From Candidatus Latescibacterota bacterium (GTDB lineage: Bacteria; Latescibacterota; UBA2968; UBA8231), in NCBI GenBank assembly GCA_022820485.1, contig JAJEFJ010000104.1, positions 52,968 to 116,967 of the forward strand: 64,000 nucleotides of DNA. The letters are read 5' to 3'. The notes under the pieces are model-generated. The model saw only the letters and a program-made list of their open reading frames with translations, was not told where the DNA came from and made no database searches. Of this stretch, positions 7,913-25,865 are shown one piece after another (the first letter of the stretch is position 1; every line of letters begins with the position of its first letter). The position numbers and the translations under genes are program-made.

Positions 7913-8098
7913 ACCTAGCTAATGGATTCTTTTAGCTGACAGGCATCTTCGTAAGCTAAATAACCCCAGCCTCTCCAATCAAGGACATTCGCCAGCGACG
8001 AGCCGACATCGCGTCGCATCTGCTGTCGCGTATTAAGCTCCTAGGTATTGCGCCGTAGAACTTGCTTGCTATAAATTGAACAATCCACATAAAGGAGG

Positions 8099-12015: not shown

Positions 12016-14216
12016 GTGAAATCCTTACTGCAAAATTTTACGTCCGAGCTTCGCGCCGACATCCTGTCTGCGAAGGCCGTTCCAGCGCTGTCAGCCGGCT
12101 TCACCTCGGGCCTAGGCCTGCTCGTCTCCCAGATTGCCTTCGGGAGCTTCATATTCTCGGGGCCGTTGGCCTCCTATTCCTCCCAAGGCGTCGGCCTAGT
12201 GCTGTTCGGGAACTTCGCGGCGTGCCTGATCATCGCCCTCGCGGGCGGCTACCTCGGCGCGATTGCGGGGTTGTCTCCCGCGCTGGTGATCGTCATGGCC
12301 ACGGTCGGCTTCACAATGAGCGCCGAGGGCGACGCGCTGTTCGTCACCACCGCGGTCGCGCTCATCATCAGTGCCGTCGCCACTGGCGCGTGCTGTCTCC
12401 TGATCGGGCGATTCCGGCTCGCCAATCTAGTCCGCTTCATCCCCTATCCAGTGACGGGTGGGTTTGTAGCTGGGATCGGGGGAGCCGTGTGCTTGGCGGC
12501 CATGTCGTTGATGGGAGCCAAACCAGATTGGCGGGCGATTCCCGCACTCTTTGAACCCTCTGTGCTGTGGAAGTGGAGCCCGGGTGCGGCGTATGGGATC
12601 GCCTTGTACCTCGCGATTAAGCGCTGGGGCAATCCGCTGATCTTGCCGGTGAGCGTCGCACTGGCCGGCGCTGCGTACCATCTCGTACTCGCCAGCCTCG
12701 GCATTTCGGTTGAAGCGGCGCGGGCGGAGGGCCTGCTGCTTACGAGCACCGCGGACGGGAGCCTGTGGCCAGCTTTGTTCCCTGCCGATCTGGTGCACGT
12801 GCAATGGGCCTCAATGGCCGAGCAGGCTCCCTACATGCTGACGCTGATCTTGGTCGCTTTCATCTGCGTAATCATGAATTTTGCCGGTCTCGAATTGGCG
12901 ACGAACAGGAGTTGGACTGGGACCGGGAGTTCCGGGTGACGGGCGTCGCGAGTATGGTCGCTGGTCTAGGTGGCGGCACAGTGGCGACCTTTGTCGTACC
13001 GGCTTCCCTGCGCAGCAAGCTGCTTGGAGCCACAACAAGGTTGACTGGGGTGGTTTCCGCCCTCGTGATCGGAGTCGCATTGTTCCTCGGCGACGGAATA
13101 CTGGGATTCGTCCCTGCTTCACTCGTAGGAGGAGGCATCCTGATCTTTGCCGGACTCGGCATGTTAGACGAAGGTCTCGTGAAAAGCCGCAAGCGGCTCC
13201 CTTGGTCGGAGTACGGCATCATTCTGTTGATTTTTATTGCGATCCTGTCCTTCGGACTGATCGAGGGTGTGGGCGTTGGGATGCTGGCCACCCTCGTGTT
13301 CTTTGCCGTGCGACTCAGCCGCGTGGACCCAATCGCATCACAGTTCACCGCGCACGAGCGCGAGAGCAACAAGACCCGTCCCGTTCCCGATCTCGCCATC
13401 CTACTGGAGGAGGGCGAGCGGGTGCAGGCATACCAACTGCGCGGCTACCTCTTTTTTGGCAGCGTGTGCCCCCTCGCCGATCATCTCAGGCAGTCCCTGA
13501 GCGGCGCTTCGCATCCTACTTGTCTGATACTGGACTTCAGTGCCGTTTCCGGCTTCGATTTTTCGGCAGTGAACGTCCTGAGCAGGTTTCTGCAAACGGC
13601 ACACGCTGCTGGTGTACGAGTAGCTCTGAGCGCATTGTCCGAGGGATTGCGGACCGGATTTGAACACAACCTTCCGCCTGCCGCATATGCCGAGTTGCTG
13701 GTGGAGCCGGATGCGGACCGCGCCCTCGAGCGCTGTGAGGACATCGTCATTGCGGAATGGAGGACGAACGTGGACATGGCGGACGAGCGTCGCGCTTCGC
13801 TGATGGAACACACCGTCGATGATCTAGAGCGCTACCTAGAGCGACAAATTGATTTCGAAAATCTGCTGGAGGAACTCCGACCTTGGCTGAATTCGCGCCA
13901 GTACGCTGCCGGCGAGGCTCTCGTAGGACCGGATGCGCCGCAAGAAGGTCTGCAATTGCTGCTTGCGGGCCGGGCTTCCGGCTACGATTCCGCGGGTACG
14001 CGCCTGTTTCAATGCGGCCCGGGCGATGCGATATGGCCGATGGGCGCGTCGGACCAGAAAGCAGCCTCTGTGGTTGCAGACGACTCCTGCCAAACGATGG
14101 TGCTGACCCCGGCCGACCTAGGCTGGCTGGAGCAGCACGAAGAGCGGCTTACCTTCAAGCTGTATCGCTACCTCTTCGCCGGGCGGCTCCAATCCGGATC
14201 GGGAGCGGAGCAATAG
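12016..14216 (+). pseudogene. SulP/SLC26 family anion (sulfate) permease with STAS and a C-terminal cNMP-binding-like domain; reading frame interrupted near 12893-12935
   Basis: The GTG at 12016 opens a SulP N-terminus (frame 1) ending NFAGLELATNRSWTGTGSSG* at 12939. The SulP signature continues in frame 0 (DWDREFRVTGVASMVAGLGGG...) through a STAS domain (YQLRGYLFFGSV...ILDFSAVSGFD) and a cNMP-binding-like tail to 14216. This is a single-nucleotide frameshift, real or a sequencing error. Confidence 0.5.
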
Positions 14217-14693: not shown

Positions 14694-15020
14694 ATGGCTT
14701 TGAACGTAGAAGACAAGATTGCGACGCTGGACCCCGCTCGGCGACGCAAGGTCGAGGATCGGGCGGCAGAACTCATTGCCGAGGAGATGACTCTGCGCGA
14801 ACTGCGCAAGGCCCGGCAACTCACCCAGGCGCGCGTCGCGCACCAACTCGGTATCTCGCAGGACGGCGTCTCGCGGCTCGAGCAACGAAGCGATCTGTTG
14901 CTCTCGACGTTGCGCAAGACGGTGGAGGCCATGGGCGGCAGTCTTGCGCTCATCGCTAGATTCCCCGACCGTCCGCCGGTCGAACTGTCAGGCATTGCCG
15001 ACAGCGATCTCCGCGATTGA
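14694..15020 (+). CDS. XRE-family HTH antitoxin (HigA-like)
   Basis: The helix-turn-helix is LRELRKARQLTQARVAHQLGISQDGVSRLE. The RBS GAAGGAAGGAG is 6 nt upstream of the ATG at 14694. The upstream toxin's stop overlaps the alternative start at 14688/14691. Confidence 0.65.
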   Translation: MALNVEDKIATLDPARRRKVEDRAAELIAEEMTLRELRKARQLTQARVAHQLGISQDGVSRLEQRSDLLLSTLRKTVEAMGGSLALIARFPDRPPVELSGIADSDLRD

Positions 15021-15048
15021 CGCCCGAGGTGACGTGAACTCTGCTCGC

Positions 15049-15753
15049 ATGGGTATTAAGGCCCTGACTGTCGATGTCTTTGGCACGGTCACCGACTGGT
15101 ACTCTACTATTGTGCGCGAGGGTGAGCGATTAGGCTGCAACAAGCGGCTTACCGTGGACTGGGCACGCTTTGCCACGGCTTGGCGCAGAGGCTATGAACC
15201 CGCTATGGGTCGCGTGCGGCGCGGCGAATTGCCTTGGACGACAATAGACGCACTCCACCGAATGATTCTCGACGACATTCTGCAAGACTTTGCGATTCCC
15301 GAGTTGTCCGAGGACGAGCGCAGTCATTTCAATCGAGTCTGGCACAGACTGGATCCGTGGCCCGATGTGGTCGGCGGCATGTTGCGGTTGAAATCCAAAT
15401 ACATTGTTGCCGCGCTTTCCAATGGCAACATGTCGTTGCTGACCAACATGGCCAAGCACGCCGGTATTCCGTGGGACTGTATCTTGTCAGCAGAGCTTGC
15501 GCGGCATTACAAGCCGGACCGGGAAGTGTACGAGACCGCGGCGCAGCTTCTCGATTTGGAGCCGCCTTCAATCCTGATGGTCGCGGCGCATCGCCACGAC
15601 CTAGAGGGAGCTAGAGCCGCTGGATTCAGAACGGCCTTCATTCCACGGCCGCTTGAATGGGGACCGGAGGGCCAAGCGGACGCAGCGCAAGACGGAGATT
15701 TTGACATAATCGCGCAAGATTTCCACGACCTTGCGGCGCAGCTTGGAGTTTAA
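15049..15753 (+). CDS. Haloacid dehalogenase, type II (HAD superfamily hydrolase)
   Basis: HAD motif I is DVFGTV(T)D with the pattern LTVDVFGTVTDW. L-2-haloacid dehalogenase-like core motifs follow. The start is set at the internal ATG 15049 (MGIKALTVDVFG), not the ORF-track 14944, which overlaps the antitoxin. Confidence 0.7.
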   Translation: MGIKALTVDVFGTVTDWYSTIVREGERLGCNKRLTVDWARFATAWRRGYEPAMGRVRRGELPWTTIDALHRMILDDILQDFAIPELSEDERSHFNRVWHRLDPWPDVVGGMLRLKSKYIVAALSNGNMSLLTNMAKHAGIPWDCILSAELARHYKPDREVYETAAQLLDLEPPSILMVAAHRHDLEGARAAGFRTAFIPRPLEWGPEGQADAAQDGDFDIIAQDFHDLAAQLGV

Positions 15754-15799: not shown

Positions 15800-17389
15800 A
15801 TGACGAAAGCCATGACAAAGCGGGAAGATCGTCGGATCGCGGTCCAGGCTGAACTGGATGCGGCCAAGGACCAGCCCGAACGCAACAGGATGGGGCAGTT
15901 TGCAACTCCAACGGAACTTGCCGTACAGATCCTTGAGTATGCTAAAGGGCAACTGAATGAGACTGAGGCGGTGCAGTTTATCGACCCGGCCATCGGAACC
16001 GGCGCGTTCTACTCAGTATTGCTCAAGGTCTTCCCGACAGACCGCCTGACACGCGCCGTCGGCTATGAAGTCGACCCCCATTACGGCGAACCTGCGGCGA
16101 GGCTGTGGAAGGGTACGATGCTAGATGTCCGCCTGGAGGACTTTACACGGGCCGCACTCCCATCAGACAAAGAGAAGTTCAACCTATTGGTCTGCAATCC
16201 GCCCTATGTCCGCCATCACCATATCGCCAGCGAGGAGAAACGACGCCTGAAGGCCCTCACAAGGGAGGCTTGCGGCATTGAGGTAAACGGGCTTGCCGGT
16301 CTGTACTGTTACTTCCTCGGCTTGTCTCACCAATGGATGGCGGCAGGCGGGTTGGCGGGTTGGCTGATACCGAGCGAATTCATGGACGTCAACTACGGCG
16401 CGTCGGTAAAGTGCTGCTTGCTCGACAAGGTTACGTTGCTACACATCCACCGCTTCGACCCAAAAGAAGTGCAATTCGGGGATGCGCTAGTGTCCTCTGC
16501 GGTAGTTTGGTTCAGTAAGAAAGAGCCGCCCACCCATCACAAAGTGCGTATGACCTATGGCGGTTCACTACTGCGACCGAGTCTGGAACGACTAGTCTCG
16601 GTCGATACGCTCCGACGCGACCCGAAATGGACGCTGTACCCAATGAAAGAGAGCCACGAGGAGTCGCCCACGCCAGTGCTCGCGGACTTCTTCACAATCA
16701 AGCGCGGGCTGGCGACTGGCGGCAACAGGTACTTCATCCTGCCAACGGAGGAAATAGAAGAGCGGGAGCTTCCTGCCGAGGTATTCCGACCTATACTTCC
16801 AAGCCCTCGTTACGTGCCGGATAACGAAATTCTGGCGGACCGCGCTGGCAACCCTGTATTGGAACGGCAGTTGTTCCTCCTAGACTGCCGGTTGCCAGAA
16901 GAGAAGATCAAGGAGCGACATCCGACGCTGGGAGCCTACCTTGAAGAAGGTAAGGCGCAAGGCATAGCCGAACGCTATATATGTCGGCATCGGTCGCCCT
17001 GGTATGCACAAGAGCGCCGACCGGCTGCGCCATTCCTCTGCACCTACCTCGGTCGCAGCGACAATAAGAACGGGCGGCCATTTCGATTTATACTGAACCA
17101 CTCCAATGCGACCGCCCCCAATGTCTATCTGATGCTGTATCCGAGGAGAGTCCTTGACAGGGCGATTGCAGGATCTCCCCAGTTGAAGCGGCAAGTGTGG
17201 GACTTCCTGAATGGCATAAGCCCAAAGGAGATGCTGAATGAGGGGAGAGTTTATGGGGGAGGGCTACACAAGCTGGAGCCGAAAGAGTTGGGCAGAGTTC
17301 CGGCGGCTGCGCTTGCAGACCTACTGCCGGAAACAGAGTGGCAGGACAAGCCGAAGCAACTGGAATTGTTTGATGTTGTGTCTGTTTAG
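15800..17389 (+). CDS. Eco57I/TaqI-family gamma-class N6-adenine DNA methyltransferase
   Basis: Motif X GQFATP, motif I FIDPAIGTGAF and motif IV NPPY (LLVCNPPYV) occur in gamma order. The 529-aa length is consistent with an attached TRD. Confidence 0.75.
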   Translation: MTKAMTKREDRRIAVQAELDAAKDQPERNRMGQFATPTELAVQILEYAKGQLNETEAVQFIDPAIGTGAFYSVLLKVFPTDRLTRAVGYEVDPHYGEPAARLWKGTMLDVRLEDFTRAALPSDKEKFNLLVCNPPYVRHHHIASEEKRRLKALTREACGIEVNGLAGLYCYFLGLSHQWMAAGGLAGWLIPSEFMDVNYGASVKCCLLDKVTLLHIHRFDPKEVQFGDALVSSAVVWFSKKEPPTHHKVRMTYGGSLLRPSLERLVSVDTLRRDPKWTLYPMKESHEESPTPVLADFFTIKRGLATGGNRYFILPTEEIEERELPAEVFRPILPSPRYVPDNEILADRAGNPVLERQLFLLDCRLPEEKIKERHPTLGAYLEEGKAQGIAERYICRHRSPWYAQERRPAAPFLCTYLGRSDNKNGRPFRFILNHSNATAPNVYLMLYPRRVLDRAIAGSPQLKRQVWDFLNGISPKEMLNEGRVYGGGLHKLEPKELGRVPAAALADLLPETEWQDKPKQLELFDVVSV

Positions 17390-17557: not shown

Positions 17558-19222
17558 TTATCCCTCGACGTCGTTCCAGTCCAGTAATCGGTCGACAGCA
17601 GAATCCGTAACCCTCTCCCCATCCAGAAACACGTTGGGAATTCCCCCCCCATAGAAGCGGACATGTTCCTTGTCGAACAGCTCCTGTGCCGCCTTCAGAG
17701 TTACTCTTGCGCTACATTCTATGCTTCCTAGGTCACATAACTCTGAGGGACCGAGCCAGCGCTGGTCACCTTTCGTACCGACAACAACGCTGCACTTGAC
17801 GGGCCGTTCATATCCTCGGCTGCGACGAGCGGCGAAAAAGGCACGATAGTCTACGTCGTCCGGAGGCAGCGAATAGCCCATGAACACAATATGATTGGCT
17901 TCCTGGACAACGGAGCGTAGGTCGCGCTGGATTTCTTCGATAAACGGCGGCGGCGCACCTTTGAAATTGCTCTGCAGCACGATCTGGGTATGGTGAGCAT
18001 AAGTTAGTGTATCGCAATTCACGCACTCACGAGCATCGACGATGCCTCTCTCACATTCCTCGATTTCCTTTTTGTTTTCGTAATGTGGAAACTTCACATC
18101 CTCCGGGACGAAACTCTTGAGTGGCGGCGGTAAAATCAGGACGGACGAATCCTTTTCCCACTGATCTCCTAGATAAGACGACAGCTTTCCGCAATCGGGG
18201 CATTCGCGCCACGTCACGCAGCCGTGAGGATAAAGAAACTTGCTGATCCGGATACGGTCGCTGGCACCATGATCGGGGTCGTTCAATCGCTGCGCCGCCG
18301 CTTCGTTCATCGGATGCCAGCGGGTCCCTGGATTTCTTGCACTGATTCGCGTCGAGGGTATTAAATGCCCAAGGTCATGGAAAATCTGTAGCCTGTGAGC
18401 CGGGATTCCGACATGGGGTACGGCCGGGCTCTGGTTCAAATTGCGATTGGCAATGGACTGAAGCCACAGGGCGATGGGATCGTAGTTCAGGCTGGCAAAG
18501 CTGACGTCGCCCATATAGAATTTTCGACTATCGTGAGGGTGATTTGCCTTTTCCAAACCCTGCCGTTGCATGCGCCTGCCGAGCGCTTCGGCAAAGTCAT
18601 AGTGGCGTTCCAGTTCCTGCTTTTTTCCCCCATCTTGCCGAAGCACCTGCCAATCGATGTAGAACATCGCCAGGATCAATAACTTCAGGGCATTGCGAGC
18701 TACCGTCACTCGTTGAGGGGTCAGGAATTCGTTTTCTTTAACGCGGAATCCATGGCCGCTTCGACCGTGTATATCCAGAATGTTGAAAAGGTCCGTGAGA
18801 AAATGGGCACCCGCACCATCCGCTCCTTGCTCAACCGGAGAGACCTTGATGACATCCTTCAGGGCAGGCCAGTCATACAACGTGCGCAAGGTCAGGATGC
18901 GGTCCCGAATCTCGTCATCATCAGCCCCGACGGACCAGTTGCGGCGCATGGCGTCCATTTGCTGATCGGTGACCATTGTGAGTTGGGTGTGATGTTCTTC
19001 GTTCTCATCACCGAGGATGGTCAGCAGATCGACAAGCGCCGAAATCCAAGGTTCCGCCCCATCGCCCACTGCATTGGCAACACGTTGTCTTAATGGCGGC
19101 GAACCTTTCTCACCGCTTGCAAGATCGTACAGAAAATCTCCCTGCTGCTCGGTTAGCCGCATGCCGAGCGTTGCGGTCGCACCAGCCCCCCAGAAGATGA
19201 CCGTGCGGGTATCTTGGGTCAT
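17558..19222 (-). CDS. SIR2 (sirtuin)-like family protein with large insertions
   Basis: The start is taken at the internal ATG (MTQDTRTVIFWGAGAT) abutting the upstream small gene. The sirtuin landmarks occur in order: GAGAT, SLNYDP (TQNID/NYD-like), HG followed by CPDC...CVNC (catalytic His plus the Zn ribbon Cx2C...Cx2C), and IVFMGYSLPPDD (GTSL-like). This is a domain-level call with no close full-length homologue recognised. Confidence 0.55.
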   Translation of the reverse strand: MTQDTRTVIFWGAGATATLGMRLTEQQGDFLYDLASGEKGSPPLRQRVANAVGDGAEPWISALVDLLTILGDENEEHHTQLTMVTDQQMDAMRRNWSVGADDDEIRDRILTLRTLYDWPALKDVIKVSPVEQGADGAGAHFLTDLFNILDIHGRSGHGFRVKENEFLTPQRVTVARNALKLLILAMFYIDWQVLRQDGGKKQELERHYDFAEALGRRMQRQGLEKANHPHDSRKFYMGDVSFASLNYDPIALWLQSIANRNLNQSPAVPHVGIPAHRLQIFHDLGHLIPSTRISARNPGTRWHPMNEAAAQRLNDPDHGASDRIRISKFLYPHGCVTWRECPDCGKLSSYLGDQWEKDSSVLILPPPLKSFVPEDVKFPHYENKKEIEECERGIVDARECVNCDTLTYAHHTQIVLQSNFKGAPPPFIEEIQRDLRSVVQEANHIVFMGYSLPPDDVDYRAFFAARRSRGYERPVKCSVVVGTKGDQRWLGPSELCDLGSIECSARVTLKAAQELFDKEHVRFYGGGIPNVFLDGERVTDSAVDRLLDWNDVEG

Positions 19223-19576
19223 TTGACAGACAGAGCCGGTACCGTAATGCCGATCAACTTCAACTTCAACTTCTTGCCATCTTTTTTGCATTTCACTTTC
19301 ACGTCAACTGCGCTCCCTTTCGTGGCAGTATCCAACAATGCGGTGTTCATCTTGGAATTATTTAATTTTAGCTTAACTGAATTCAGACATTTTTTGATGG
19401 CTAGAACCTTAACGGCATTGCGTGACTTGGTCTTACGACCCTTGGAAAGAAATACAGCATACTCCTTCCCTTGGTGATTCACGCAATGATCTTTATCAGG
19501 AACAAAAAATACAACCCCTTTTCTTTTTTCTTGAATTTTGAGATGAATAATTCCTGTTGATTCGTAACGTTTAGAC
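19219..19576 (-). CDS. Small Lys-rich basic hypothetical protein (~119 aa), very low GC
   Basis: AAAGGAG lies 7 nt upstream of the ATG at 19576 (MSKRYESTG...). The C-terminal tail is K-rich (KVKCKKDGKKLKLKL). Its stop abuts the SIR2-like start, so the two are likely co-transcribed. GC is ~38% against the ~60% backbone. Confidence 0.4.
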
Positions 19577-19787
19577 ATGGATTCTCTCCTTTCTGGAACG
19601 AGCCTGATGCGCATCTTAACCTTAATTAGTATCTCCGATTGGCGCAAAAAGGCATGCTAAGGTCGTCTCAGCGAACTCGGTGACGCCGAGGACTAGTGGA
19701 GAAGCTGACGGCTCTGGTCCCCACCTCGGCTCTATTTCCTTTCATATTGAGCGGGCATCAGCGTTTCGCAAAATGAGAAGGCACTAG

Positions 19788-19991
19788 GTGTTCGAAGGGG
19801 TGAATCCGTACGACTACCTGATGGAGCAGCATCCGGCTGACGCCGTGCGGATGTCCGCGCTCCTCATCAGTCTGTGCGAGATCAACTATGACAAATGTCG
19901 GGACTTGGGATTTGCCTTTACTATGGGAATTATACATGTTACCAAGTCCATACTTTTCAACTATATAGGAGCCTTTAAGGGCGGCGATTGA
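19788..19991 (+). CDS. Hypothetical small protein (67 aa), uncertain
   Basis: This ORF lies directly upstream of, and stop/start coupled with, the type IIG gene. It has no recognisable motifs and could be a leader ORF or not expressed. Confidence 0.2.
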   Translation: MFEGVNPYDYLMEQHPADAVRMSALLISLCEINYDKCRDLGFAFTMGIIHVTKSILFNYIGAFKGGD

Positions 19992-19993
19992 CT

Positions 19994-22900
19994 ATGTATC
20001 AAATAGATTACAACGATCCGAAATACCAAGCAGCAGCGGCGGCGATTCTGCAACGGCACGACAATAATGAACCCGAGGCTAATATCACTAGTGCGGTGCG
20101 GGACTTTTTGCTCTGCACGGGATTGGTTGATGCAAATAAAGTCGCCGAGGAAGTGTCGCCATCGGACCGCTCGGTGCGCGCTGTGGATTTGAGGGCGTCA
20201 AATACGTTTATCGAAATCAAGAAGCGCATCGGCACGACCGGAGGCTTTAATCCCAATGAAATCTATGTGAAGCAGTTGGATGAATACTTGGCGGAATCCA
20301 TGACGTACGGGCGGAGAGCGCGGATGGGTGTCCTCACAGACGGGAGGTACTGGCTCCTACGCTGGCCGAATGCCGGCAAGGTCAAAACGACTAGGCCCTA
20401 TGCTTTTACCCTAGAATCGGCGGCTGACTGGCTGCTTTTGTACGAGTGGCTACGCGACAAGGTCATCGGTACGCAGGACGAAATTCCAGCTCAGCGCACT
20501 GAGGTCGAGCAGAACTTTGGGCCCAACAGCCCGTTGTATCGATGGGATATTGACGGCCTTAACGTGCTCTACCAAGGGGCGAAGGACCGCGAAACCGTCC
20601 GAGTCAAGTGCCGTCTATGGGAAACCTTGTTGCGAGCGGCATTGGGCGAGATCGCTCAGACGCCCGACGAGCTAGACGATCTGTTTGTCCGACACACGTA
20701 CCTAAGCATGGTCATCGGCATGGTGGTACAGGCGTACTTTGGCATAGATATTCGGGAACGGGCTGCTAATGATCCAACGGACTTGCTCTACGGACGGCAG
20801 TTCCGCGATGACACCGGCCTACAAGACATTATTGAGTCCGATTTCTTTACGTGGCCTGCCGAAGTGGGTGGGGAATCGCTCATTGAGCGGATGGCTGAGC
20901 ATGTAGCCCGCTTTAACTGGAAGGAAGCACCCCCCGACATCGCCGCTACTTTATATGAAGCGATTATTCCTCCGGATGAGCGCCGCCAGTTGGGCGAGTA
21001 TTATACCCCAGAATGGCTGGCGCAGGAGATGGTACAGGAGGTAGTAACGGACCCGCTCCGCCAACGGGTTCTCGACCCGTCTTGTGGCTCCGGCACGTTT
21101 GTCGCCGTTTCGGTGCGCCACTTTGTCGAAGCGGCCACAGAAGAGGCGTTGGAGCGACTGCGCGAGGCGGTGATGGGTATTGACGTGCATCCGGTAGCGG
21201 TACGGCTGGCCCGCACGGCTTGGGTGATGGCAGCGCGGCCCCTCCTTGAGGCGGCCGCCGAGGCCGGGTATGAGGGGAACGTGGCGATACCCGTGTATTT
21301 GGGAGACGCCTTGCAGTTGCACTACCAAACCGGTGACTTGTTTGTCGGCGGGGATATAGGCATTGAGGTGGAGGGCGATGAGTTCGACAAAAGGCTAATT
21401 TTCCCGATTCGTTTGGTGGAGCAAGCCGACACGTTTGATCGGCTGATGAGCGACGTTGCCGATGCGATTGAGCGCGGCCATGATCCGCTAGTTGCGCTGG
21501 ACGACCACGGGATTACGGACCCGGACCAGCGACAGACGCTGGCGACGACGATCGCGATCATGCAGGATTTACACGCCGAAGGGCGCAATCACATCTGGGC
21601 GTATTACACGCGCAATTTGGTCCGTCCGGTGGCGTTAAGCCGCCACAAGGTCGATGTGATTGTCGGCAACCCGCCGTGGCTGAACTATCGCAATACCGCT
21701 AGCGTGCTGCGCGACAAGCTGGTGCAGCAGAGCAAGGAGCTGTATCACATCTGGCAGGGGGGGCGCTATGCAACGCATCAAGATGTCGCCGGACTTTTCT
21801 TTGCCCGTAGCGTCGCGCTCTACCTGAAAGCTGGCGGCACTATCTCCATGGTGTTGCCACACAGCGCATTGCAAACCGGGCAATATGCCAAGTGGCGCAC
21901 GGGACGATGGGGCGATTTGGCGGTGAATTTCGGCTGCAAAACGGCGTGGGATCTGGAAAAACTCGAACCCAACACGTTTTTTCCGGTCGCATCGTGTGTC
22001 GTGTTTGCCGAGCGGATGGATGAATTGGCCCCAGCGACACCCTTGACCGGCGAGGTCGAGCAATGGCAAGGGACGACCGGGGCGAAGGATGTGTGGCGGG
22101 AGCGGATGGCCATTACCGACACGTCGGTTAGTGGAACATCGCCATACGCGGATCGCTTTCGGCAGGGCGCTTCCATCGTGCCGCGCTGTCTTTTCTTTGT
22201 CCATGAAGTCGAAGGCACTACCCTTGTTAGAGCCGCGCAAACCGTTAAGGTGGAGCCACGCCGAGGTCGCAATGACAAAGCACCGTGGAAGACGCTTGAT
22301 CTGACCGCCATCACCGGGCAGACGATAGAGAAAGCGCACTTATTTGACGTTCACTTGGGAGAGACGGTGGTGCCCTACGCGACCTTACCCCCGCTGAAAG
22401 CCCTGTTGCCCTTAAAACGAAACGACAATGAACTGCCTGTGGATCCCAATGGGACGGGAGGCATTCATCTCGGTGGGTTGGAACAGCGGATGCGGGGACG
22501 GTGGCAGCAGGTCAGTGCATTATGGGAGTTGCATAAAGGGGCTAATAACTCCAAGAGCTTGCTACATTGGTTGGACTATCATGGCAAACTCTCGGCGCAA
22601 CTCGAATGGCGAAAGAATGACAAGGGCACTCCTATTCGCGTGGTGTACACCTCAGCAGGGGAACCTACGGCTGCGATTATTGCTGACAGGGACACCATTA
22701 TTGACTACAAGTTATTCTGGATAACTTGTAAGGACATGCAGGAGGCTCACTACTTACTCGCCATCATTAACAGCCGCACCCTATATGAAGCGGCTCAACC
22801 GTTGATGTCCAAGGGTCAGTTTGGAGCGCGTGATTTACAGAAGCATCTGTGGAAATTGCCGATACCAGAATACGATGAAACGAACCGCTTGCATCAGGAG

Positions 22901-23077
22901 ATAGCGATGGCCGGTCAAGCAGCCGCCAGCGAGGCCGCCCAGCAATTGCAAAACCTATACAAGCAACGCGGCGATGCGGTCAGCACGACCGTCGTTCGCC
23001 GCGAATTGCGCGGGTGGCTCGCCCAATCGGACGAAGGCAAGCAAGTAGAGACGCTAGTAAAACGACTATTGGCGTAA
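19994..23077 (+). CDS. Type IIG/IIL restriction-modification enzyme (MmeI-like: N-terminal PD-(D/E)xK nuclease + gamma N6A-methyltransferase + C-terminal TRD)
   Basis: The N-terminal segment VDLRASNTFIEIKK carries a D...ExK motif. The methyltransferase motifs are GEYYTPEWLAQEMV (motif X), VLDPSCGSGTFV (motif I) and VIVGNPPWLNY (motif IV). ~350 aa of C-terminal TRD follow. The start is at ATG 19994 or TTG 19988. Confidence 0.7.
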   Translation: MYQIDYNDPKYQAAAAAILQRHDNNEPEANITSAVRDFLLCTGLVDANKVAEEVSPSDRSVRAVDLRASNTFIEIKKRIGTTGGFNPNEIYVKQLDEYLAESMTYGRRARMGVLTDGRYWLLRWPNAGKVKTTRPYAFTLESAADWLLLYEWLRDKVIGTQDEIPAQRTEVEQNFGPNSPLYRWDIDGLNVLYQGAKDRETVRVKCRLWETLLRAALGEIAQTPDELDDLFVRHTYLSMVIGMVVQAYFGIDIRERAANDPTDLLYGRQFRDDTGLQDIIESDFFTWPAEVGGESLIERMAEHVARFNWKEAPPDIAATLYEAIIPPDERRQLGEYYTPEWLAQEMVQEVVTDPLRQRVLDPSCGSGTFVAVSVRHFVEAATEEALERLREAVMGIDVHPVAVRLARTAWVMAARPLLEAAAEAGYEGNVAIPVYLGDALQLHYQTGDLFVGGDIGIEVEGDEFDKRLIFPIRLVEQADTFDRLMSDVADAIERGHDPLVALDDHGITDPDQRQTLATTIAIMQDLHAEGRNHIWAYYTRNLVRPVALSRHKVDVIVGNPPWLNYRNTASVLRDKLVQQSKELYHIWQGGRYATHQDVAGLFFARSVALYLKAGGTISMVLPHSALQTGQYAKWRTGRWGDLAVNFGCKTAWDLEKLEPNTFFPVASCVVFAERMDELAPATPLTGEVEQWQGTTGAKDVWRERMAITDTSVSGTSPYADRFRQGASIVPRCLFFVHEVEGTTLVRAAQTVKVEPRRGRNDKAPWKTLDLTAITGQTIEKAHLFDVHLGETVVPYATLPPLKALLPLKRNDNELPVDPNGTGGIHLGGLEQRMRGRWQQVSALWELHKGANNSKSLLHWLDYHGKLSAQLEWRKNDKGTPIRVVYTSAGEPTAAIIADRDTIIDYKLFWITCKDMQEAHYLLAIINSRTLYEAAQPLMSKGQFGARDLQKHLWKLPIPEYDETNRLHQEIAMAGQAAASEAAQQLQNLYKQRGDAVSTTVVRRELRGWLAQSDEGKQVETLVKRLLA

Positions 23078-23114: not shown

Positions 23115-23519
23115 ATGCCGATACCTTTCGAGTTGATTTTGGAACAGGCTCCGGTGTCTTCCCAAACCCGCCGCAGGCAGAGATTCCACGAGTGGCGACA
23201 AGATTTGGAAAGGGCCACCAGACTGGTCTGGGATACGGAGGCACCTGTTGCCGTTCCGGTATCGGTCACAATCACTTACTTCTTTGACGACACGCCAGTT
23301 GATGTTGATAATATCCCGAAACCTATCCTCGACGCTTTGAAAGGATTGGTATTTCGGGATGATTCTCAGGTGTACGACCTACTTTGTCGCAAGAGAAATA
23401 GAGCTGATAACTTGCGGATCGAAGGGCCATCGCAAGGCTTGCTCGCTGCTCTCGACAATTCTAGGCAAGTACTTCACATTAAAGGGACCGCCGCCCAGAA
23501 TCAGGAGATAGCATTTTGA
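23115..23519 (+). CDS. RusA-family Holliday junction resolvase-like endonuclease
   Basis: 134 aa. The signature is FFDDTPVDVDNIPKPILDALKGLVFRDDSQVYDL (D-x-D-N, K, DAL, DD). Its stop overlaps the next gene's start as ATGA. Confidence 0.65.
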   Translation: MPIPFELILEQAPVSSQTRRRQRFHEWRQDLERATRLVWDTEAPVAVPVSVTITYFFDDTPVDVDNIPKPILDALKGLVFRDDSQVYDLLCRKRNRADNLRIEGPSQGLLAALDNSRQVLHIKGTAAQNQEIAF

Positions 23520-24187
23520 TAAGCAATGCAACCAATGCTGAATACCTTCTTGCTCTTAAAACAGCACAGGAATATCGGAGCAAAGGCTACGATGTTTCGA
23601 CAGAGGTGCTTCTCGACTTCTTTCCCAACTTCCAAGCTGACCTAGTTGTACGGAAGGGCGACGAGTCGAAGATAATTGAGGTGAGGTCTCGGTCCTCACT
23701 GGCCGCGGACCGTAGAATCAGCGAATTGGCAAATATCATAGACTCAAAGCCGGGTTGGACCTTCGAATTGATTCTGGTGAGTGAGCCTGAGAGTCGTGAT
23801 GCACCTGCTGGTGCGAGGTCTTTCGAAAGCGAAAGCATCCTCCAACGAATTGAACAAGCCGAGAAAGCCCTGCAATCAGATATTCCCGAAGCGGCTTTCA
23901 TGCTTGCGTGGTCAGCTTGTGAGGCTGCGATTCGAGCATTGGTGTCAAACGAAGGAGTTTCAAAGCCGGGTATCACCTCGGCGAGTTACGTCCTTGACCA
24001 AGCGCGTTACTTGGGGGTTATCTCAAAGGACGAGTATCTCAAGCTGACTGACTTGCATAAATATAGAAACGCGATTGCCCACGGGTTTAGCCACGACGAC
24101 TTGGGTATCGAGATGGTTTTGGAATTGATCGAGACTGCTCGTAGATTGACGAACGAGCAGAGCACAGAGGAATATGCCCAAACTTGA
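23516..24187 (+). CDS. Two-domain protein: N-terminal restriction-endonuclease-like (Mrr_cat/Hjc-like) domain + C-terminal HEPN domain
   Basis: The N-terminus has KGYDV...QADLVVRKGDESKIIEVRS...TFELILVSE, a D...E-x-K/R pattern like Mrr_cat. The C-terminus has KYRNAIAHG, which matches the HEPN R-x4-H motif in a helical context. It is coupled to RusA by a 4-bp overlap. Confidence 0.5.
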   Translation: MISNATNAEYLLALKTAQEYRSKGYDVSTEVLLDFFPNFQADLVVRKGDESKIIEVRSRSSLAADRRISELANIIDSKPGWTFELILVSEPESRDAPAGARSFESESILQRIEQAEKALQSDIPEAAFMLAWSACEAAIRALVSNEGVSKPGITSASYVLDQARYLGVISKDEYLKLTDLHKYRNAIAHGFSHDDLGIEMVLELIETARRLTNEQSTEEYAQT

Positions 24188-25865
24188 ATCCCCCACCGGC
24201 ATCGACCGCAACCTAACCCACTACGCCGACCCCGGCTTTAGCCGCTACCTACGCCGCGCTTTCCTCGCGTCGGCTGGCTACGACGAGGCCGATTTAGAGC
24301 GGCCCGTCGTCGGCATCGCCGATACCTCATCCGACTACACCACCTGCCATCGCGCCATGCCCCAGCTCGTAGAAGCCGTCAAACGCGGCGTGCTAGAAGC
24401 GGGCGGCCTACCCCTCGTCTTTCCAACCCTTTCCCTCGGCGAAATCCTCCTCTCCCCCACCGCCATGCTCTACCGCAACCTCATGGCCATGGCGACCGAG
24501 GAAATGATCACCGCCCAGCCCATGGACGCGGTCGTGCTACTCGGCGGCTGCGACAAAACACTGCCAGCCCAACTCATGGCCTCGGCTTCCGCGTCCGTGC
24601 CCGCCATCCACCTCGTCGCCGGGCCAATGCTGGCCGGAGACTGGCGCGGCGAGCGCTTGGGTGCCTGCACGGATTGCCGCCGCTACTGGGCACAGCACCG
24701 GGCCGGTGCGCTCGACGCCGAAGAAATCGCCGCTGTCGAGCAGAATCTGTGTCCAACCGCCGGAACCTGCATGGTCATGGGCACGGCCTCAACCATGGCC
24801 TGCGTGACCGAAGCCCTCGGGCTAATGCTGCCGGGCGCAGCTACCCCACCCGCAGTCTCCGGCCAGCGCCTGCGGCTCGGAGTCGCCACAGGCCGCCGGG
24901 CCGTAGCCTTAGCCGCCGACGGCCGCTCGGCGCGAGACATACTAACGCCAGCAGCCTTTGCCAACGCGCTCAAGGTGCTGGCTGCACTAAGCGGCTCGAC
25001 GAATGCGGTCGTGCATTTGCTCGCCATTGCGCGCCGGGCCGGTGTGGATCTGTCGCTAGACGACTTCCACACCACAGCCCAACAAGTGCCGCTGCTGGTC
25101 GATTGCAAGCCAGCGGGCACTGGGTACATGGAGGATTTCGACAAGGCCGGCGGCGTGCCCGTCCTGCTCAAGGCACTGGAGCCGATGCTTGACCTCGATA
25201 CAATAGGCGTCAGCGGCCAAACCCTCGGCGCACTCTTGCAGGACGTGGCCGCGCCCGGCGATTGGCAAACCGCGATCCGCACCTTGGACGCGCCGCTGGG
25301 GCCAGCGTCGTCTCTCGTAGTGCTAAAAGGCTCGCTCGCGCCAGACGGAGCCGTCTTGAAAAAGGCCACCTCTTCCCCACACTTGCACAAGCACCGAGGG
25401 CCAGCCATCGTATTCGAGGGGCCAGACGATGCCGCGCGCGTTGACGACCCCGCCTTGGGCATTACGCCGGAACACGTGCTGGTGCTGCGCGGAGCCGGGC
25501 CGGTCGCCCTCGGAATGCCCGAAGCTGGGTCCATGCCCTTGCCCAAGCACCTCGCCGCCCAAGGAGTCACGGACATGGTGCGCATCTCCGATGGACGGAT
25601 GAGCGGCACGGCGTATGGAACGGTCGCTTTGCACGTAGCGCCGGAAGCGACCGTCGGCGGGCCGCTGGCACTCGTCCGCGACGGCGACCTGATCGAGTTG
25701 GACGTAGAAGCCGGGCGCTTAGATTTGTTAGTCCCCGAAGAAACCCTCGCCCACCGGCGGGCCGAATGGGTCGCACCCGCTGCGCCCGCCCGTGGATGGC
25801 GGCAGCTGTACGCCGAGCGCGTATTGCAGGCGAACTTGGGGGCGGATTTGGATTTTATGCCGTAG
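24174..25865 (+). CDS. IlvD/EDD-family dehydratase (dihydroxy-acid / sugar-acid dehydratase)
   Basis: 563 aa. The Fe-S ligand motifs CDKTLPAQ and CPTAGTC are present, along with GGCDK and a C-terminal SDGRMSG-like pattern. Confidence 0.8.
   Translation: MPKLESPTGIDRNLTHYADPGFSRYLRRAFLASAGYDEADLERPVVGIADTSSDYTTCHRAMPQLVEAVKRGVLEAGGLPLVFPTLSLGEILLSPTAMLYRNLMAMATEEMITAQPMDAVVLLGGCDKTLPAQLMASASASVPAIHLVAGPMLAGDWRGERLGACTDCRRYWAQHRAGALDAEEIAAVEQNLCPTAGTCMVMGTASTMACVTEALGLMLPGAATPPAVSGQRLRLGVATGRRAVALAADGRSARDILTPAAFANALKVLAALSGSTNAVVHLLAIARRAGVDLSLDDFHTTAQQVPLLVDCKPAGTGYMEDFDKAGGVPVLLKALEPMLDLDTIGVSGQTLGALLQDVAAPGDWQTAIRTLDAPLGPASSLVVLKGSLAPDGAVLKKATSSPHLHKHRGPAIVFEGPDDAARVDDPALGITPEHVLVLRGAGPVALGMPEAGSMPLPKHLAAQGVTDMVRISDGRMSGTAYGTVALHVAPEATVGGPLALVRDGDLIELDVEAGRLDLLVPEETLAHRRAEWVAPAAPARGWRQLYAERVLQANLGADLDFMP

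What the first reader, a model, noticed from the sequence alone, without database searches (positions are those of the whole stretch)
23115..24187. Overlapping RusA-like resolvase + Mrr_cat-like/HEPN two-domain gene pair in the defence island
A 134-aa RusA-family Holliday-junction resolvase (VDVDNIPKPILDALKGLVFRDDSQV) overlaps by 4 bp (ATGA) a 223-aa protein. The second protein's N-terminus resembles a restriction-endonuclease (Mrr_cat/Hjc-like) fold (QADLVVRKGDESKIIEVRS). Its C-terminus carries a clean HEPN R-x4-H motif (LHKYRNAIAHG), which in Abi, Csm6 and toxin families is an RNase active site. RusA is normally a phage or prophage recombination gene, and no other phage genes are nearby. Here it is coupled to a putative HEPN RNase or nuclease directly downstream of a type IIG RM enzyme. 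The layout suggests a structure-sensing nuclease plus HEPN effector, a possible abortive-infection or anti-phage module. I do not know of a described system with this composition.
Basis: partly seen in the sequence, partly recalled or inferred. Interest (0 to 1): 0.65.

Follow-up and report, generated by a model that had tools for sequence, protein, structure and literature searches.

The report
Conserved RusA plus REase-HEPN nuclease pair
Two overlapping genes, a RusA-type DNA-junction cutter and a fused DNA-nuclease/RNA-nuclease protein, form a conserved, horizontally mobile two-gene cassette found across several bacterial phyla that no paper in the searched library describes and that most likely belongs to the toxin/anti-phage class of systems.

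Summary
Window 23115-23519 encodes a 134-aa RusA (Pfam, fold and catalytic residues all agree). Window 23516-24187 encodes a 223-aa fusion of an AHJR-like PD-(D/E)xK nuclease (PF18743) and a HEPN domain with an invariant RNxxxH motif. One detail is wrong: the overlap is TTGA with a TTG start, not ATGA.

The pair is a real module. RusA, or a remnant of it, lies directly upstream in 75 of 80 genome loci chosen by the HEPN protein. The HEPN protein lies downstream in 25 of 25 metagenome loci chosen by RusA. Only these two genes are shared across about 39 genomic contexts in five or more phyla and on Rhizobiales plasmids. No phage has a homologue of the HEPN protein, so this is not a prophage remnant. 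The neighbouring type IIG enzyme is not a conserved partner.

One result was unexpected. RusA is repeatedly deleted, while AHJR-HEPN stays under purifying selection (dN/dS about 0.1). AHJR-HEPN is therefore the autonomous core, and RusA cannot be its antitoxin.

The function is inferred, not shown. The best reading is a conflict (abortive-infection or addiction) module that couples recognition of branched DNA to HEPN RNase activity. The fusion protein is a known architecture; the pairing with RusA appears undescribed.

The parts
23115..23519 (+). rusA-like gene, 134 aa: RusA-family structure-specific endonuclease, first gene of the cassette
23301..23363 (+). RusA catalytic segment: D63-V-D65-N ... 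K69 ... D82-D83
   Evidence: Aligns to the 1q8r segment RRRDLDNLQK...WLDDAQV. D65, N66, K69 and D83 are invariant and D63 is at least 90% conserved in 57 homologues. The equivalence to E. coli D70/D72/K76/D91 rests on my own knowledge of RusA.
23503..23507 (+). AGGAG ribosome-binding site for the second gene, inside the 3' end of rusA
   Evidence: Read directly from the sequence: 8-nt spacer to TTG 23516. It is retained in relatives that have deleted rusA (L005).
23516..24187 (+). AHJR-HEPN gene, 223 aa, TTG start, overlapping the rusA stop by 4 nt (TTGA)
   Evidence: 381 close homologues. 2296 clusters at 50% identity with E<=1e-3. AF2 pLDDT 79.8.
23516..23785 (+). N-terminal AHJR-like PD-(D/E)xK nuclease domain (aa 1-90), motif E19 ... 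D42 ... E55-V-R57
23828..24184 (+). C-terminal HEPN domain (aa 105-223)
24065..24082 (+). HEPN active-site motif R184-N-A-I-A-H189, followed by G-F191
   Evidence: Read from the sequence. R184, N185 and H189 are invariant in 55 homologues; R and H occur in 105/111 across the family. Position H+2 is Phe, not the Tyr that MntA AMPylates in HepT (RX4HXY, PMC7641770).
19988..23077 (+). Context only: type IIG restriction-modification enzyme, 37 nt upstream of rusA. Not a conserved partner.
   Evidence: PADLOC REase_MTase_IIG E 1.5e-62. tblastn finds no homologue of it in the loci of the six related genomes, and it is not in the conserved neighbour clusters.
24174..25865 (+). Context only: ilvD/edd-family dehydratase. 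Its start overlaps the last 14 nt of the AHJR-HEPN gene and marks the right edge of the variable region.
   Evidence: PF00920 E 1e-100. Syntenic in L001-L006. GC rises from about 0.50 to about 0.65 at this point.

Best explanation
This is a self-contained, horizontally mobile two-gene nuclease cassette of the conflict type (anti-phage/abortive-infection or addiction).

Shown: the two genes are translationally coupled. Both keep their catalytic motifs. They co-occur across phyla, and the RusA subfamily occurs only with this partner.

Inferred mechanism: the AHJR-HEPN protein is the autonomous core. It probably dimerises and uses its Hjc-like PD-(D/E)xK domain to bind, and perhaps cut, branched or otherwise unusual DNA such as phage or plasmid replication and recombination intermediates. 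That binding licenses the composite HEPN RNase site to cleave cellular or invader RNA and arrest growth. RusA is an accessory structure-specific DNase made from the same transcript. It would act on the same branched DNA, either destroying it or producing the DNA ligand that AHJR-HEPN senses. RusA is useful only together with AHJR-HEPN and is readily lost.
For: Module reality. RusA or its remnant lies directly upstream on the same strand in 75/80 genome loci, usually with a 1-4 nt overlap. The HEPN protein lies downstream in 25/25 metagenome loci selected by RusA. The pairing also holds for AHJR-HEPN homologues only 25-35% identical (with RusA remnants) and on plasmids of cultured Agrobacterium, Azospirillum and Rhizobium. 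Only these two genes are shared among about 39 context groups.

Active enzymes. The RusA D/D/K/D residues, the PD-ExK motif D...E-x-K and the HEPN motif R-N-x3-H are all conserved family-wide, and the folds are confirmed.

Conflict-type behaviour. The phyletic spread is patchy: Latescibacterota, Chloroflexota, Acidobacteriota, Pseudomonadota and Actinomycetota. The pair's GC is 0.50 against about 0.63 in the flanks. Some MAGs carry two copies (L026/L029 and L072/L079). The window's locus is a variable hotspot with RM genes. In Caldilineaceae the pair sits between hsdM and hsdS together with HNH and Ymh-HEPN genes. In Rhizobium it lies next to AbiEii and IS5. About 11 of 137 immediate neighbours give strong PADLOC hits.

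Core versus accessory. rusA shows deletions with three different endpoints among seven Latescibacterota genomes, and two of the deletions leave in-frame fusions that keep the rusA start in front of the HEPN ORF. AHJR-HEPN dN/dS is 0.08-0.23, including between genomes that lack RusA and share the same deletion (L003-L004: 0.076 at dS 0.28). RusA dN/dS is 0.30. RusA is not intact in 20/80 loci, whereas the HEPN gene is present in 25/25.

Precedents. DARNA/PD-T7-3 is an ssDNA-activated HEPN RNase defence protein (bioRxiv 10.64898/2026.02.22.705581). Prokaryotic HEPN domains are overwhelmingly conflict-associated (PMC3710099).
Against: There are no functional data of any kind. Neither protein matches a PADLOC model. 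Most genomic neighbours are ordinary metabolic or housekeeping genes, so the defence-island signal is modest and was not tested against a background rate. A host RusA that resolves junctions would, taken at face value, help rather than harm a phage. In the window protein the PD-ExK lysine is Arg (R57), so DNA cleavage by this copy is uncertain. In one context (pTi_CFBP2177) the neighbours are the DNA-repair genes imuA, a Y-family polymerase gene and ligD. Whether the two proteins interact physically was not tested. Some of the 'split' RusA cases may be frameshift errors in the MAG assemblies.
Confidence: 0.5

Rival explanations
1. A classical toxin-antitoxin (addiction) pair with no role in phage defence. 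RusA would be the toxin, cutting replication forks or junctions when unchecked. AHJR-HEPN would be its antidote, for example by occupying the same DNA structures or, as in type V systems, by cleaving rusA mRNA.
For: It is a small, overlapping two-gene operon scattered between housekeeping genes, even between pgk and tpiA. Some genomes hold several copies. The loss pattern is asymmetric: this RusA subfamily was never found without AHJR-HEPN (25/25), whereas AHJR-HEPN is often found without an intact RusA (20/80). That is the pattern expected for a toxin and its antitoxin. A phage RusA is strongly cytotoxic when expressed in M. smegmatis (PMC11373665).
Against: An antidote would not obviously need two conserved nuclease active sites. 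Orphan AHJR-HEPN stays under strong purifying selection long after RusA is lost, which argues that it has a function of its own. The typical member has no DNA-binding antitoxin domain; a representative carrying an N-terminal HTH domain (P0282) was seen only once among the ten long representatives scanned. TA and defence roles are also not mutually exclusive.
Confidence: 0.2
2. A HepT-like (type VII-style) toxin-antitoxin system in which AHJR-HEPN is the RNase toxin and RusA, in the upstream 'antitoxin slot', neutralises it.
Against: rusA is deleted or truncated in many genomes while an intact AHJR-HEPN under purifying selection remains; this would be lethal if RusA were the antitoxin. RusA keeps its nuclease catalytic residues. 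There is no MNT partner. The AMPylated Tyr of RX4HXY is Phe in the window protein. The NCBIfam HepT_toxin score is 15.6 bits against a cutoff of 60.
Confidence: 0.05
3. An accessory DNA recombination or repair module. RusA and the Hjc-like domain would process Holliday junctions or stalled forks, and HEPN would remove associated RNA.
For: RusA and Hjc are bona fide resolvase families. In pTi_CFBP2177 the pair follows imuA, a Y-family polymerase gene and ligD. Many copies lie among housekeeping genes.
Against: The distribution is patchy and horizontally transferred, with atypical GC. RusA is lost frequently. Prokaryotic HEPN RNases are characteristically conflict proteins (PMC3710099). Some copies are embedded in RM loci or lie next to Abi and IS genes.
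Confidence: 0.12
4. An ordinary prophage remnant: a phage rusA with a neighbouring phage gene left behind after prophage decay.
For: RusA is typically a phage or prophage gene, and it matches PHROG RusA families.
Against: There are no phage genes from 8.8 to 30.8 kb. The flanking backbone is syntenic in six related genomes. AHJR-HEPN has no homologue in 50,697 phage genomes or in IMG/VR. This RusA subfamily matches phage RusA only weakly, at most 36% identity over about half its length. In the Pfam survey of the two genes on either side in 36 contexts, none of the 25 most frequent families is a phage structural family; only that top list was shown.
Confidence: 0.02
5. A three-component system with the upstream type IIG RM enzyme, in which the pair is an accessory of that enzyme.
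For: Only 37 nt separate the type IIG stop codon from the rusA start, on the same strand. In Caldilineaceae the pair is likewise embedded in a type I RM operon, recalling PrrC.
Against: Across about 39 contexts only the two genes are conserved. Six sister genomes keep the pair at the same site with no homologue of the type IIG gene in the 20-kb locus. The RM types differ between lineages.
Confidence: 0.06

Closest known systems
AHJR-like REase + HEPN-M (DUF86/HepT-like) fusion proteins; Pfam PF18743, noted in Anantharaman et al. 2013, Biol Direct 8:15 (PMC3710099)
   Same: The second protein is a member. It has a strong PF18743 hit, the same N-terminal REase and C-terminal HEPN architecture, and a conserved Rx4H motif.
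   Different: That description is a one-line computational note about a domain fusion. The main text has no mention of RusA, and neither does the one supplementary file held as text. No function, partner or system was proposed.
E. coli / lambdoid-prophage RusA Holliday-junction resolvase (PDB 1q8r)
   Different: This is a distinct cellular subfamily, at most 36% identical to any phage RusA over about half its length. It is absent from phage collections. It is always coupled to AHJR-HEPN and is frequently lost.
HepT-MntA (HEPN/MNT) type VII toxin-antitoxin systems
   Same: The HEPN fold and Rx4H RNase motif match. The layout is the same: a small two-gene operon with the HEPN gene second and overlapping the first.
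   Different: There is no MNT partner. The Tyr of RX4HXY is Phe. An extra PD-(D/E)xK domain is present. The upstream partner is dispensable. The score is below the NCBIfam HepT_toxin cutoff.
DARNA (PD-T7-3), an ssDNA-activated HEPN RNase anti-phage protein
   Same: It is a working precedent for the proposed logic: a DNA structure produced during phage replication activates a HEPN RNase and causes abortive infection.
   Different: There is no homology beyond HEPN. In DARNA the HEPN domain is N-terminal, with a helical Pds5-like C-domain. It is a single-gene system and has no resolvase-type domains.
PrrC/RloC-type HEPN anticodon nucleases embedded in type I RM loci
   Same: It is a HEPN nuclease found next to or inside RM operons: type IIG in the window, and between hsdM and hsdS in L063/L065.
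   Different: There is no ABC-ATPase domain. The RM association is occasional rather than the rule. It has a RusA partner.

Membership tests
RusA family (PF05866) | Profile match above the curated threshold | tested here: met
   46 bits against a cutoff of 22.8, E 1e-11.
RusA family (PF05866) | RusA alpha/beta fold | tested here: met
RusA family (PF05866) | Catalytic acidic residues and Lys (E. coli D70, D72, K76, D91) | tested here: met
   D63, D65, K69 and D83 align to the 1q8r segment and are invariant or nearly invariant in 57 homologues.
RusA family (PF05866) | Holliday-junction cleavage as a homodimer | not testable with these tools
   Needs biochemistry.
AHJR-like REase (PF18743) / PD-(D/E)xK superfamily | Profile match above the curated threshold | tested here: met
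   73.4 bits against a cutoff of 26.1, E 1.5e-20.
AHJR-like REase (PF18743) / PD-(D/E)xK superfamily | Alpha-beta-beta-beta-alpha-beta nuclease core fold | tested here: met
AHJR-like REase (PF18743) / PD-(D/E)xK superfamily | Catalytic D ... (D/E)-x-K motif | tested here: inconclusive
   D42 and E55 are present, but the Lys position is R57 in the window protein. Family-wide it is K in 85/111 and R in 15/111. Whether the Arg variant cleaves DNA is unknown.
HEPN superfamily | Rx4-6H motif | tested here: met
   R184-NAIA-H189, invariant in close homologues and about 95% conserved family-wide.
HEPN superfamily | Four-helix up-down HEPN fold | tested here: met
HEPN superfamily | Match to a specific HEPN Pfam family above its threshold | tested here: not met
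   The best hits are 15-18 bits against cutoffs of 22-28. It is a divergent HEPN-M-like domain.
HEPN superfamily | Metal-independent RNase activity | not testable with these tools
   Needs biochemistry.
Type VII TA HepT-MntA | Adjacent MNT (GSX10DXD) nucleotidyltransferase antitoxin | tested here: not met
   The upstream gene is RusA. No nucleotidyltransferase recurs among the neighbours.
Type VII TA HepT-MntA | RX4HXY motif with the AMPylated Tyr | tested here: not met
   The window protein has RNAIAHGF. In the family, F occurs in 68, Y in 21 and L in 14 of 111. The motif definition comes from PMC7641770.
Type VII TA HepT-MntA | NCBIfam HepT_toxin equivalog score | tested here: not met
   15.6 bits against a cutoff of 60.
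Catalogued anti-phage defence systems (PADLOC-DB 2.0) | Match of either protein to any system model | tested here: not met
   Zero families at E<=1 for both proteins.
Prophage / prophage remnant | Flanking phage genes, or homologues of the pair in phage genomes | tested here: not met
PrrC-like RM-embedded HEPN nucleases | N-terminal ABC-ATPase domain and obligatory linkage to type I RM | tested here: not met
   There is no ATPase domain. RM adjacency occurs only in some lineages.

The most novel reading that the evidence does not exclude
The cassette is a previously unrecognised innate-immune sensor of recombination or replication intermediates. Two resolvase-type modules, RusA and an Hjc-like PD-(D/E)xK domain, would recognise branched DNA (Holliday junctions, D-loops, reversed forks) that accumulates during phage or plasmid replication. 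They would convert that recognition into HEPN RNase activation, with RusA either creating the activating DNA product or acting as a second, DNA-level effector. This would be a new trigger class (four-way or branched DNA) and a new use of a Holliday-junction resolvase in immunity.
Probability: 0.22. Interest if true: 0.8.

Novelty: new variant of a known kind. Interest (0 to 1): 0.62.

Why it matters
HEPN RNases are a major effector class in bacterial immunity and toxin systems, and the open problem for most of them is how they are kept off and what switches them on. This cassette offers a compact, two-protein case in which the candidate regulator or sensor parts are Holliday-junction-resolvase folds. 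If that reading is right, branched DNA would join free DNA ends (Shedu) and SSB-bound ssDNA (DARNA) as an infection signal.

The family is large: about 2,300 clusters at 50% identity. It spans at least five phyla. It also occurs on plasmids of cultured Agrobacterium, Azospirillum and Rhizobium, so it can be tested directly. The natural rusA deletions already supply a genetic result: AHJR-HEPN functions and is tolerated without RusA. If the cassette turns out to be a plain addiction module, it would still be the first toxin-antitoxin-like system built around RusA.

Tried and rejected
- **Prophage remnant.** Rejected: there are no phage genes in the flanks, and no phage or IMG/VR homologues.
- **Three-gene system with the type IIG enzyme.** Rejected as the general rule by the neighbour clustering and by the six sister genomes.
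- **A third conserved gene.** After the two genes and their antisense shadow ORFs, the next neighbour cluster occurs in only 13 of 81 loci (80 fetched plus the window).
- **RusA as antitoxin of a HepT-like toxin.** Rejected because rusA is deleted while intact AHJR-HEPN remains under selection.
- **Solved structures by sequence.** AHJR-HEPN gave nothing significant (best E 0.096). RusA gave only a weak hit to 1q8r (E 0.0066). Fold search was needed for both.
- **A shared upstream operator or promoter.** The upstream regions across loci are not conserved. The promoter and terminator scan of the window did not exceed shuffled controls.
- **Direct repeats bounding the cassette in the window.** None of note.
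- **L111 128-aa upstream ORF as a divergent RusA.** hhalign probability 0.2, so it is not RusA.
- **Look-up of P0501.** Returned nothing.
- **Literature.** Searches on RusA with HEPN, with defence terms and with antitoxin found no description of the pair. 'RusA' is absent from PMC3710099 and from its one supplementary file held as text, and from PMC7159879.
- **Not possible here.** A complex (multimer) prediction of the two proteins, and a genome-wide defence-island enrichment score.
Full report
**1. The observation**

ORF1 runs from 23115 to 23519 on the + strand, is 134 aa long and starts with ATG. ORF2 runs from 23516 to 24187 on the + strand and is 223 aa long.

One detail is wrong. ORF2 has no in-frame ATG. 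It starts at TTG 23516, so the 4-nt overlap reads TTGA rather than ATGA. An AGGAG at 23503-23507, inside the 3' end of ORF1, sits 8 nt before this start.

ORF1 is a RusA.
- It matches Pfam PF05866 with E 1e-11, 46 bits against a cutoff of 22.8.
- It matches the PHROG RusA families.
- A profile of its homologues aligns to E. coli RusA (1q8r) across the segment D63-V-D65-N-I-P-K69 ... D82-D83.
- These residues are invariant or nearly so in 57 homologues.

ORF2 is a two-domain protein.
- Residues 1-~90 match PF18743 'REase_AHJR-like' with E 1.5e-20.
- The motif R184-N-A-I-A-H189 is invariant in close homologues.

The N-domain should be called AHJR/Hjc-like rather than Mrr_cat.

**2. Surroundings in the window**

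The pair has GC of about 0.50, against about 0.63-0.69 in the flanking genes. The region reads as follows:

| Coordinates | Strand | Gene | Evidence |
|---|---|---|---|
| 14944-15753 | + | HAD hydrolase | |
| 15800-17389 | + | type II MTase | PADLOC E 6e-132, |
| 17558-19291 | - | unannotated ORF, 577 aa | no hit in Pfam, PADLOC or PHROGs |
| 19219-19647 | - | unannotated ORF, 142 aa | no hit in Pfam, PADLOC or PHROGs |
| 19988-23077 | + | type IIG RM enzyme | PADLOC E 1.5e-62, |
| 23115-24187 | + | the pair | |
| 24174-25865 | + | ilvD/edd-family dehydratase | |

The dehydratase start overlaps the end of ORF2. Nothing phage-like lies between 8.8 and 30.8 kb.

The closest relatives are six 'Candidatus Latescibacterota' MAG chromosomes (L001-L006, 91-97% amino-acid identity). 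They share the backbone helicase, SulP, HAD ... ilvD, DRL, HSP20, M20. In every one the AHJR-HEPN gene abuts an ilvD 5' end. tblastn finds no homologue of the type IIG enzyme in any of these 20-kb loci. The type II MTase element sits on either side of the pair, accompanied by duplicated fragments of the ilvD 5' end or of HAD.

This locus is therefore a variable insertion hotspot. The RM adjacency in the window is specific to this genome.

**3. The pair is a conserved module**

*Loci chosen by the HEPN protein.* A scan of one genome per GTDB species with an AHJR-HEPN alignment returned 121 relatives, of which 80 were kept. Most are Dehalococcoidia or other Chloroflexota and Caldilineaceae. Latescibacterota, Vicinamibacterales, Arenicellales, Pseudomonadales and Ca. 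Poriferisodalis also appear. A RusA profile hits directly upstream on the same strand in 75 of the 80, typically ending 1-4 nt into the HEPN ORF.

*Shared genes.* All-against-all clustering of the flanking ORFs shows that only these two genes are shared, apart from antisense shadow ORFs. The next cluster reaches only 13 of 81 loci. The loci fall into about 39 unrelated context groups.

*The reverse test.* A metagenome scan with the RusA alignment gave 25 loci, and all 25 have AHJR-HEPN immediately downstream.

*Depth of the coupling.* The AHJR-HEPN family is large: 2,296 clusters at 50% identity with E<=1e-3. I sampled members only 25-35% identical to the window protein.
- They carry RusA upstream in L106/L107, L108 and L110.
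- They carry recognisable RusA remnants in L113-L116.
- L111/L112 show no RusA.

*Cultured carriers.* Three plasmids of cultured Alphaproteobacteria carry the same overlapping pair: pTi_CFBP2177, A. lipoferum 4B p4 and Rhizobium sp. T136 pT136b. RefSeq annotates them only as 'RusA family ...' plus 'HepT-like ribonuclease domain-containing protein' or 'hypothetical protein'.

**4. It is not a phage gene**

- AHJR-HEPN has no homologue in 50,697 phage genomes or in IMG/VR, and no PHROG match.
- This RusA subfamily resembles phage RusAs only weakly, at most 36% identity over about half its length. It has one marginal IMG/VR hit.
- I surveyed 137 neighbours (two genes on either side) from 36 contexts against Pfam. 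The list is heterogeneous and mostly metabolic or housekeeping, and none of the 25 most frequent families shown is a phage structural family.
- About 11 of those neighbours give strong PADLOC hits: type I MTase x2, SIR2-pAgo-associated x2, PtuA x2, IetA, SoFic, pVip-kinase, PDC-S01 and SduA. That is a modest excess, and I did not test it against a background rate.
- Two lineage-specific contexts are telling. In Caldilineaceae (L063/L065) the order is hsdM, RusA, AHJR-HEPN, a second AHJR-HEPN paralogue (65% identical), an HNH protein, an unknown, a Ymh-family HEPN and hsdS. In Rhizobium the pair lies beside AbiEii and an IS5.

**5. Catalytic competence**

Across 111 family representatives down to 25% identity, the conserved positions are:
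- PD-ExK domain: D42 in 104 and E55 in 95. Position 57 is K in 85 and R in 15.
- HEPN domain: R184 in 105, N185 in 92, H189 in 105 and G190 in 107, plus W132, E136 and R140.

The window protein has R57, so DNA cleavage by this particular copy is uncertain. DNA binding is not in doubt on these grounds.

The residue two positions after the HEPN His is Phe. In HepT that position is the Tyr that MntA polyadenylylates (RX4HXY, PMC7641770). A HepT/MntA-type control is therefore excluded.

**6. An unexpected genetic result: RusA is the dispensable partner**

Among the seven Latescibacterota genomes, rusA is intact in the window, L002 and L006. In the others:
- L001 has an internal deletion that keeps codons 1-43 fused in frame to the HEPN ORF.
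- L003 and L004 share one deletion that fuses codons 1-26 in frame.
- L005 has lost the gene completely but retains the AGGAG site and a start codon.

AHJR-HEPN remains intact in all of them. Pairwise dN/dS is 0.08-0.23. For L003 against L004, which share the deletion and so diverged after it, the value is 0.076 at dS 0.28. RusA gives about 0.30.

Over the 80 genome loci, RusA is intact in 60, split in 6, partial in 9 and absent in 5. Some of the split cases may be assembly errors. In the RusA-selected set, no locus lacks the HEPN gene.

Two conclusions follow. AHJR-HEPN is tolerated and functional without RusA, so RusA is not its antitoxin. This RusA subfamily seems to exist only together with AHJR-HEPN.

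**7. Mechanism**

What is shown is anatomy and evolutionary behaviour. The steps below are inferred.

I consider a conflict module most likely (confidence about 0.5).
- AHJR-HEPN dimerises. HEPN active sites are composite across a dimer, and Hjc-type domains are also dimeric; both statements rest on established knowledge of these families.
- It recognises branched or unusual DNA through the Hjc-like domain.
- That recognition licenses RNA cleavage by HEPN, giving growth arrest or RNA-level restriction.
- RusA, made by translational coupling, acts on the same DNA structures as a second effector or as the generator of the activating ligand.

A DNA-structure-triggered HEPN RNase has a direct precedent in DARNA/PD-T7-3, which is activated by ssDNA presented by phage SSB.

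The main rival, at about 0.2, is a pure addiction system with RusA as toxin and AHJR-HEPN as antidote. It fits the asymmetric loss pattern, the scattering between housekeeping genes (even pgk-tpiA), the multiple copies per MAG, and the cytotoxicity of a phage RusA in M. smegmatis (PMC11373665). It does not explain why the 'antidote' keeps two nuclease sites and stays under selection when orphaned.

An accessory repair role (about 0.12) is suggested by the imuA / Y-family polymerase / ligD neighbours on pTi. The patchy, horizontally transferred distribution and the HEPN domain argue against it.

**8. Comparison with what is known**

- The second protein belongs to the AHJR-REase + HEPN-M fusion that Anantharaman et al. 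2013 mention in one table line and that Pfam captures as PF18743.
- The first protein is a RusA by every testable criterion.
- The system is not a HepT-MntA TA. It has no MNT and no Tyr, and it scores below the NCBIfam cutoff.
- It is not PrrC-like, because it has no ATPase domain.
- It matches no PADLOC model.
- No paper in the searchable library contains both 'RusA' and 'HEPN' as whole words.

I therefore rate it a new variant of a known kind: a HEPN-nuclease conflict module with an undescribed, resolvase-type partner.

**9. Caveats**

- Nearly all carriers are MAGs.
- The genome set was chosen by similarity to the HEPN protein, and the metagenome set by similarity to RusA.
- Defence-neighbour enrichment was not tested statistically.
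- No interaction or activity data exist.
- My impression that many carriers are sponge symbionts rests on MAG names such as Poriferisodalis, not on a tool result. Contig names that look like soil metagenomes also appear among the RusA-selected loci.

Noticed in passing
L001:9486-9707; L002:10663-10854; L004:10684-10791; L005:10678-10779 (window equivalent 24174-24420): In related Latescibacterota genomes, short duplicated copies of the ilvD 5' end (aa ~2-80) flank inserted blocks such as the Eco57I-type MTase element. L001 also has a duplicated HAD 3' fragment at 7572-7971. This looks like repeated site-specific insertion at the 5' end of ilvD, that is, a defence or cargo hotspot.
   Followed up: partly
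window 17558-19291 (-) and 19219-19647 (-): Two ORFs of 577 and 142 aa lie between the type II MTase and the type IIG gene, convergent with the MTase. Neither has a Pfam, PADLOC or PHROG match. The larger one could be the cognate restriction endonuclease or a novel defence gene.
   Followed up: partly
window 12016-12939 and 12765-14216 (+): The SulP/STAS sulfate-permease homologue is split into two overlapping ORFs in different frames. The same break appears in all relatives that carry it (L001-L005; L006 gave no SulP hit), so it is either a conserved frameshift or a genuine two-ORF arrangement rather than a sequencing error.
   Followed up: no
L063:7478-16848 and L065: In Caldilineaceae the cassette is embedded in a type I RM operon between hsdM and hsdS. 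It is accompanied by a second AHJR-HEPN paralogue (65% identical), an HNH_2 protein, an unknown 484-aa protein and a Ymh-family HEPN protein.
   Followed up: partly
L111:3598-4681; L113/L114:3303-4675: Distant AHJR-HEPN copies sit between pgk and tpiA of the gap-pgk-tpi glycolytic cluster. They have a 126-128-aa non-RusA ORF upstream; L113/L114 also keep degraded RusA fragments, whereas L111/L112 show none. That is an odd place for a putative toxin or defence gene.
   Followed up: partly
P0282 (352 aa), P0315 (663 aa), P0294 (444 aa): These are architectural variants of the family: an N-terminal XRE-type HTH fused to AHJR-HEPN, AHJR-HEPN with a second RiboL-PSP-type HEPN, and AHJR with a DUF4145/MtlR-like HEPN. 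The HTH fusion hints at autoregulation, as in TA systems.
   Followed up: no
window 8793-11732 (-): A large DEAD/DEAH helicase with an MrfA Zn-binding (MZB) domain matches the PADLOC BrxHI, SngC and DruE helicase models. It is conserved and syntenic in all six relatives, so it is probably the housekeeping MrfA/Lhr-type repair helicase rather than part of the island.
   Followed up: partly
record titles (L012, L022, L037, L063-L066, L070, L078): Many carriers have MAG names typical of marine-sponge microbiome projects (Ca. Poriferisodalis, SB0662_bin, Plut_, jk18x). The close subfamily may be enriched in sponge symbionts. This reading comes from the names only.
   Followed up: no
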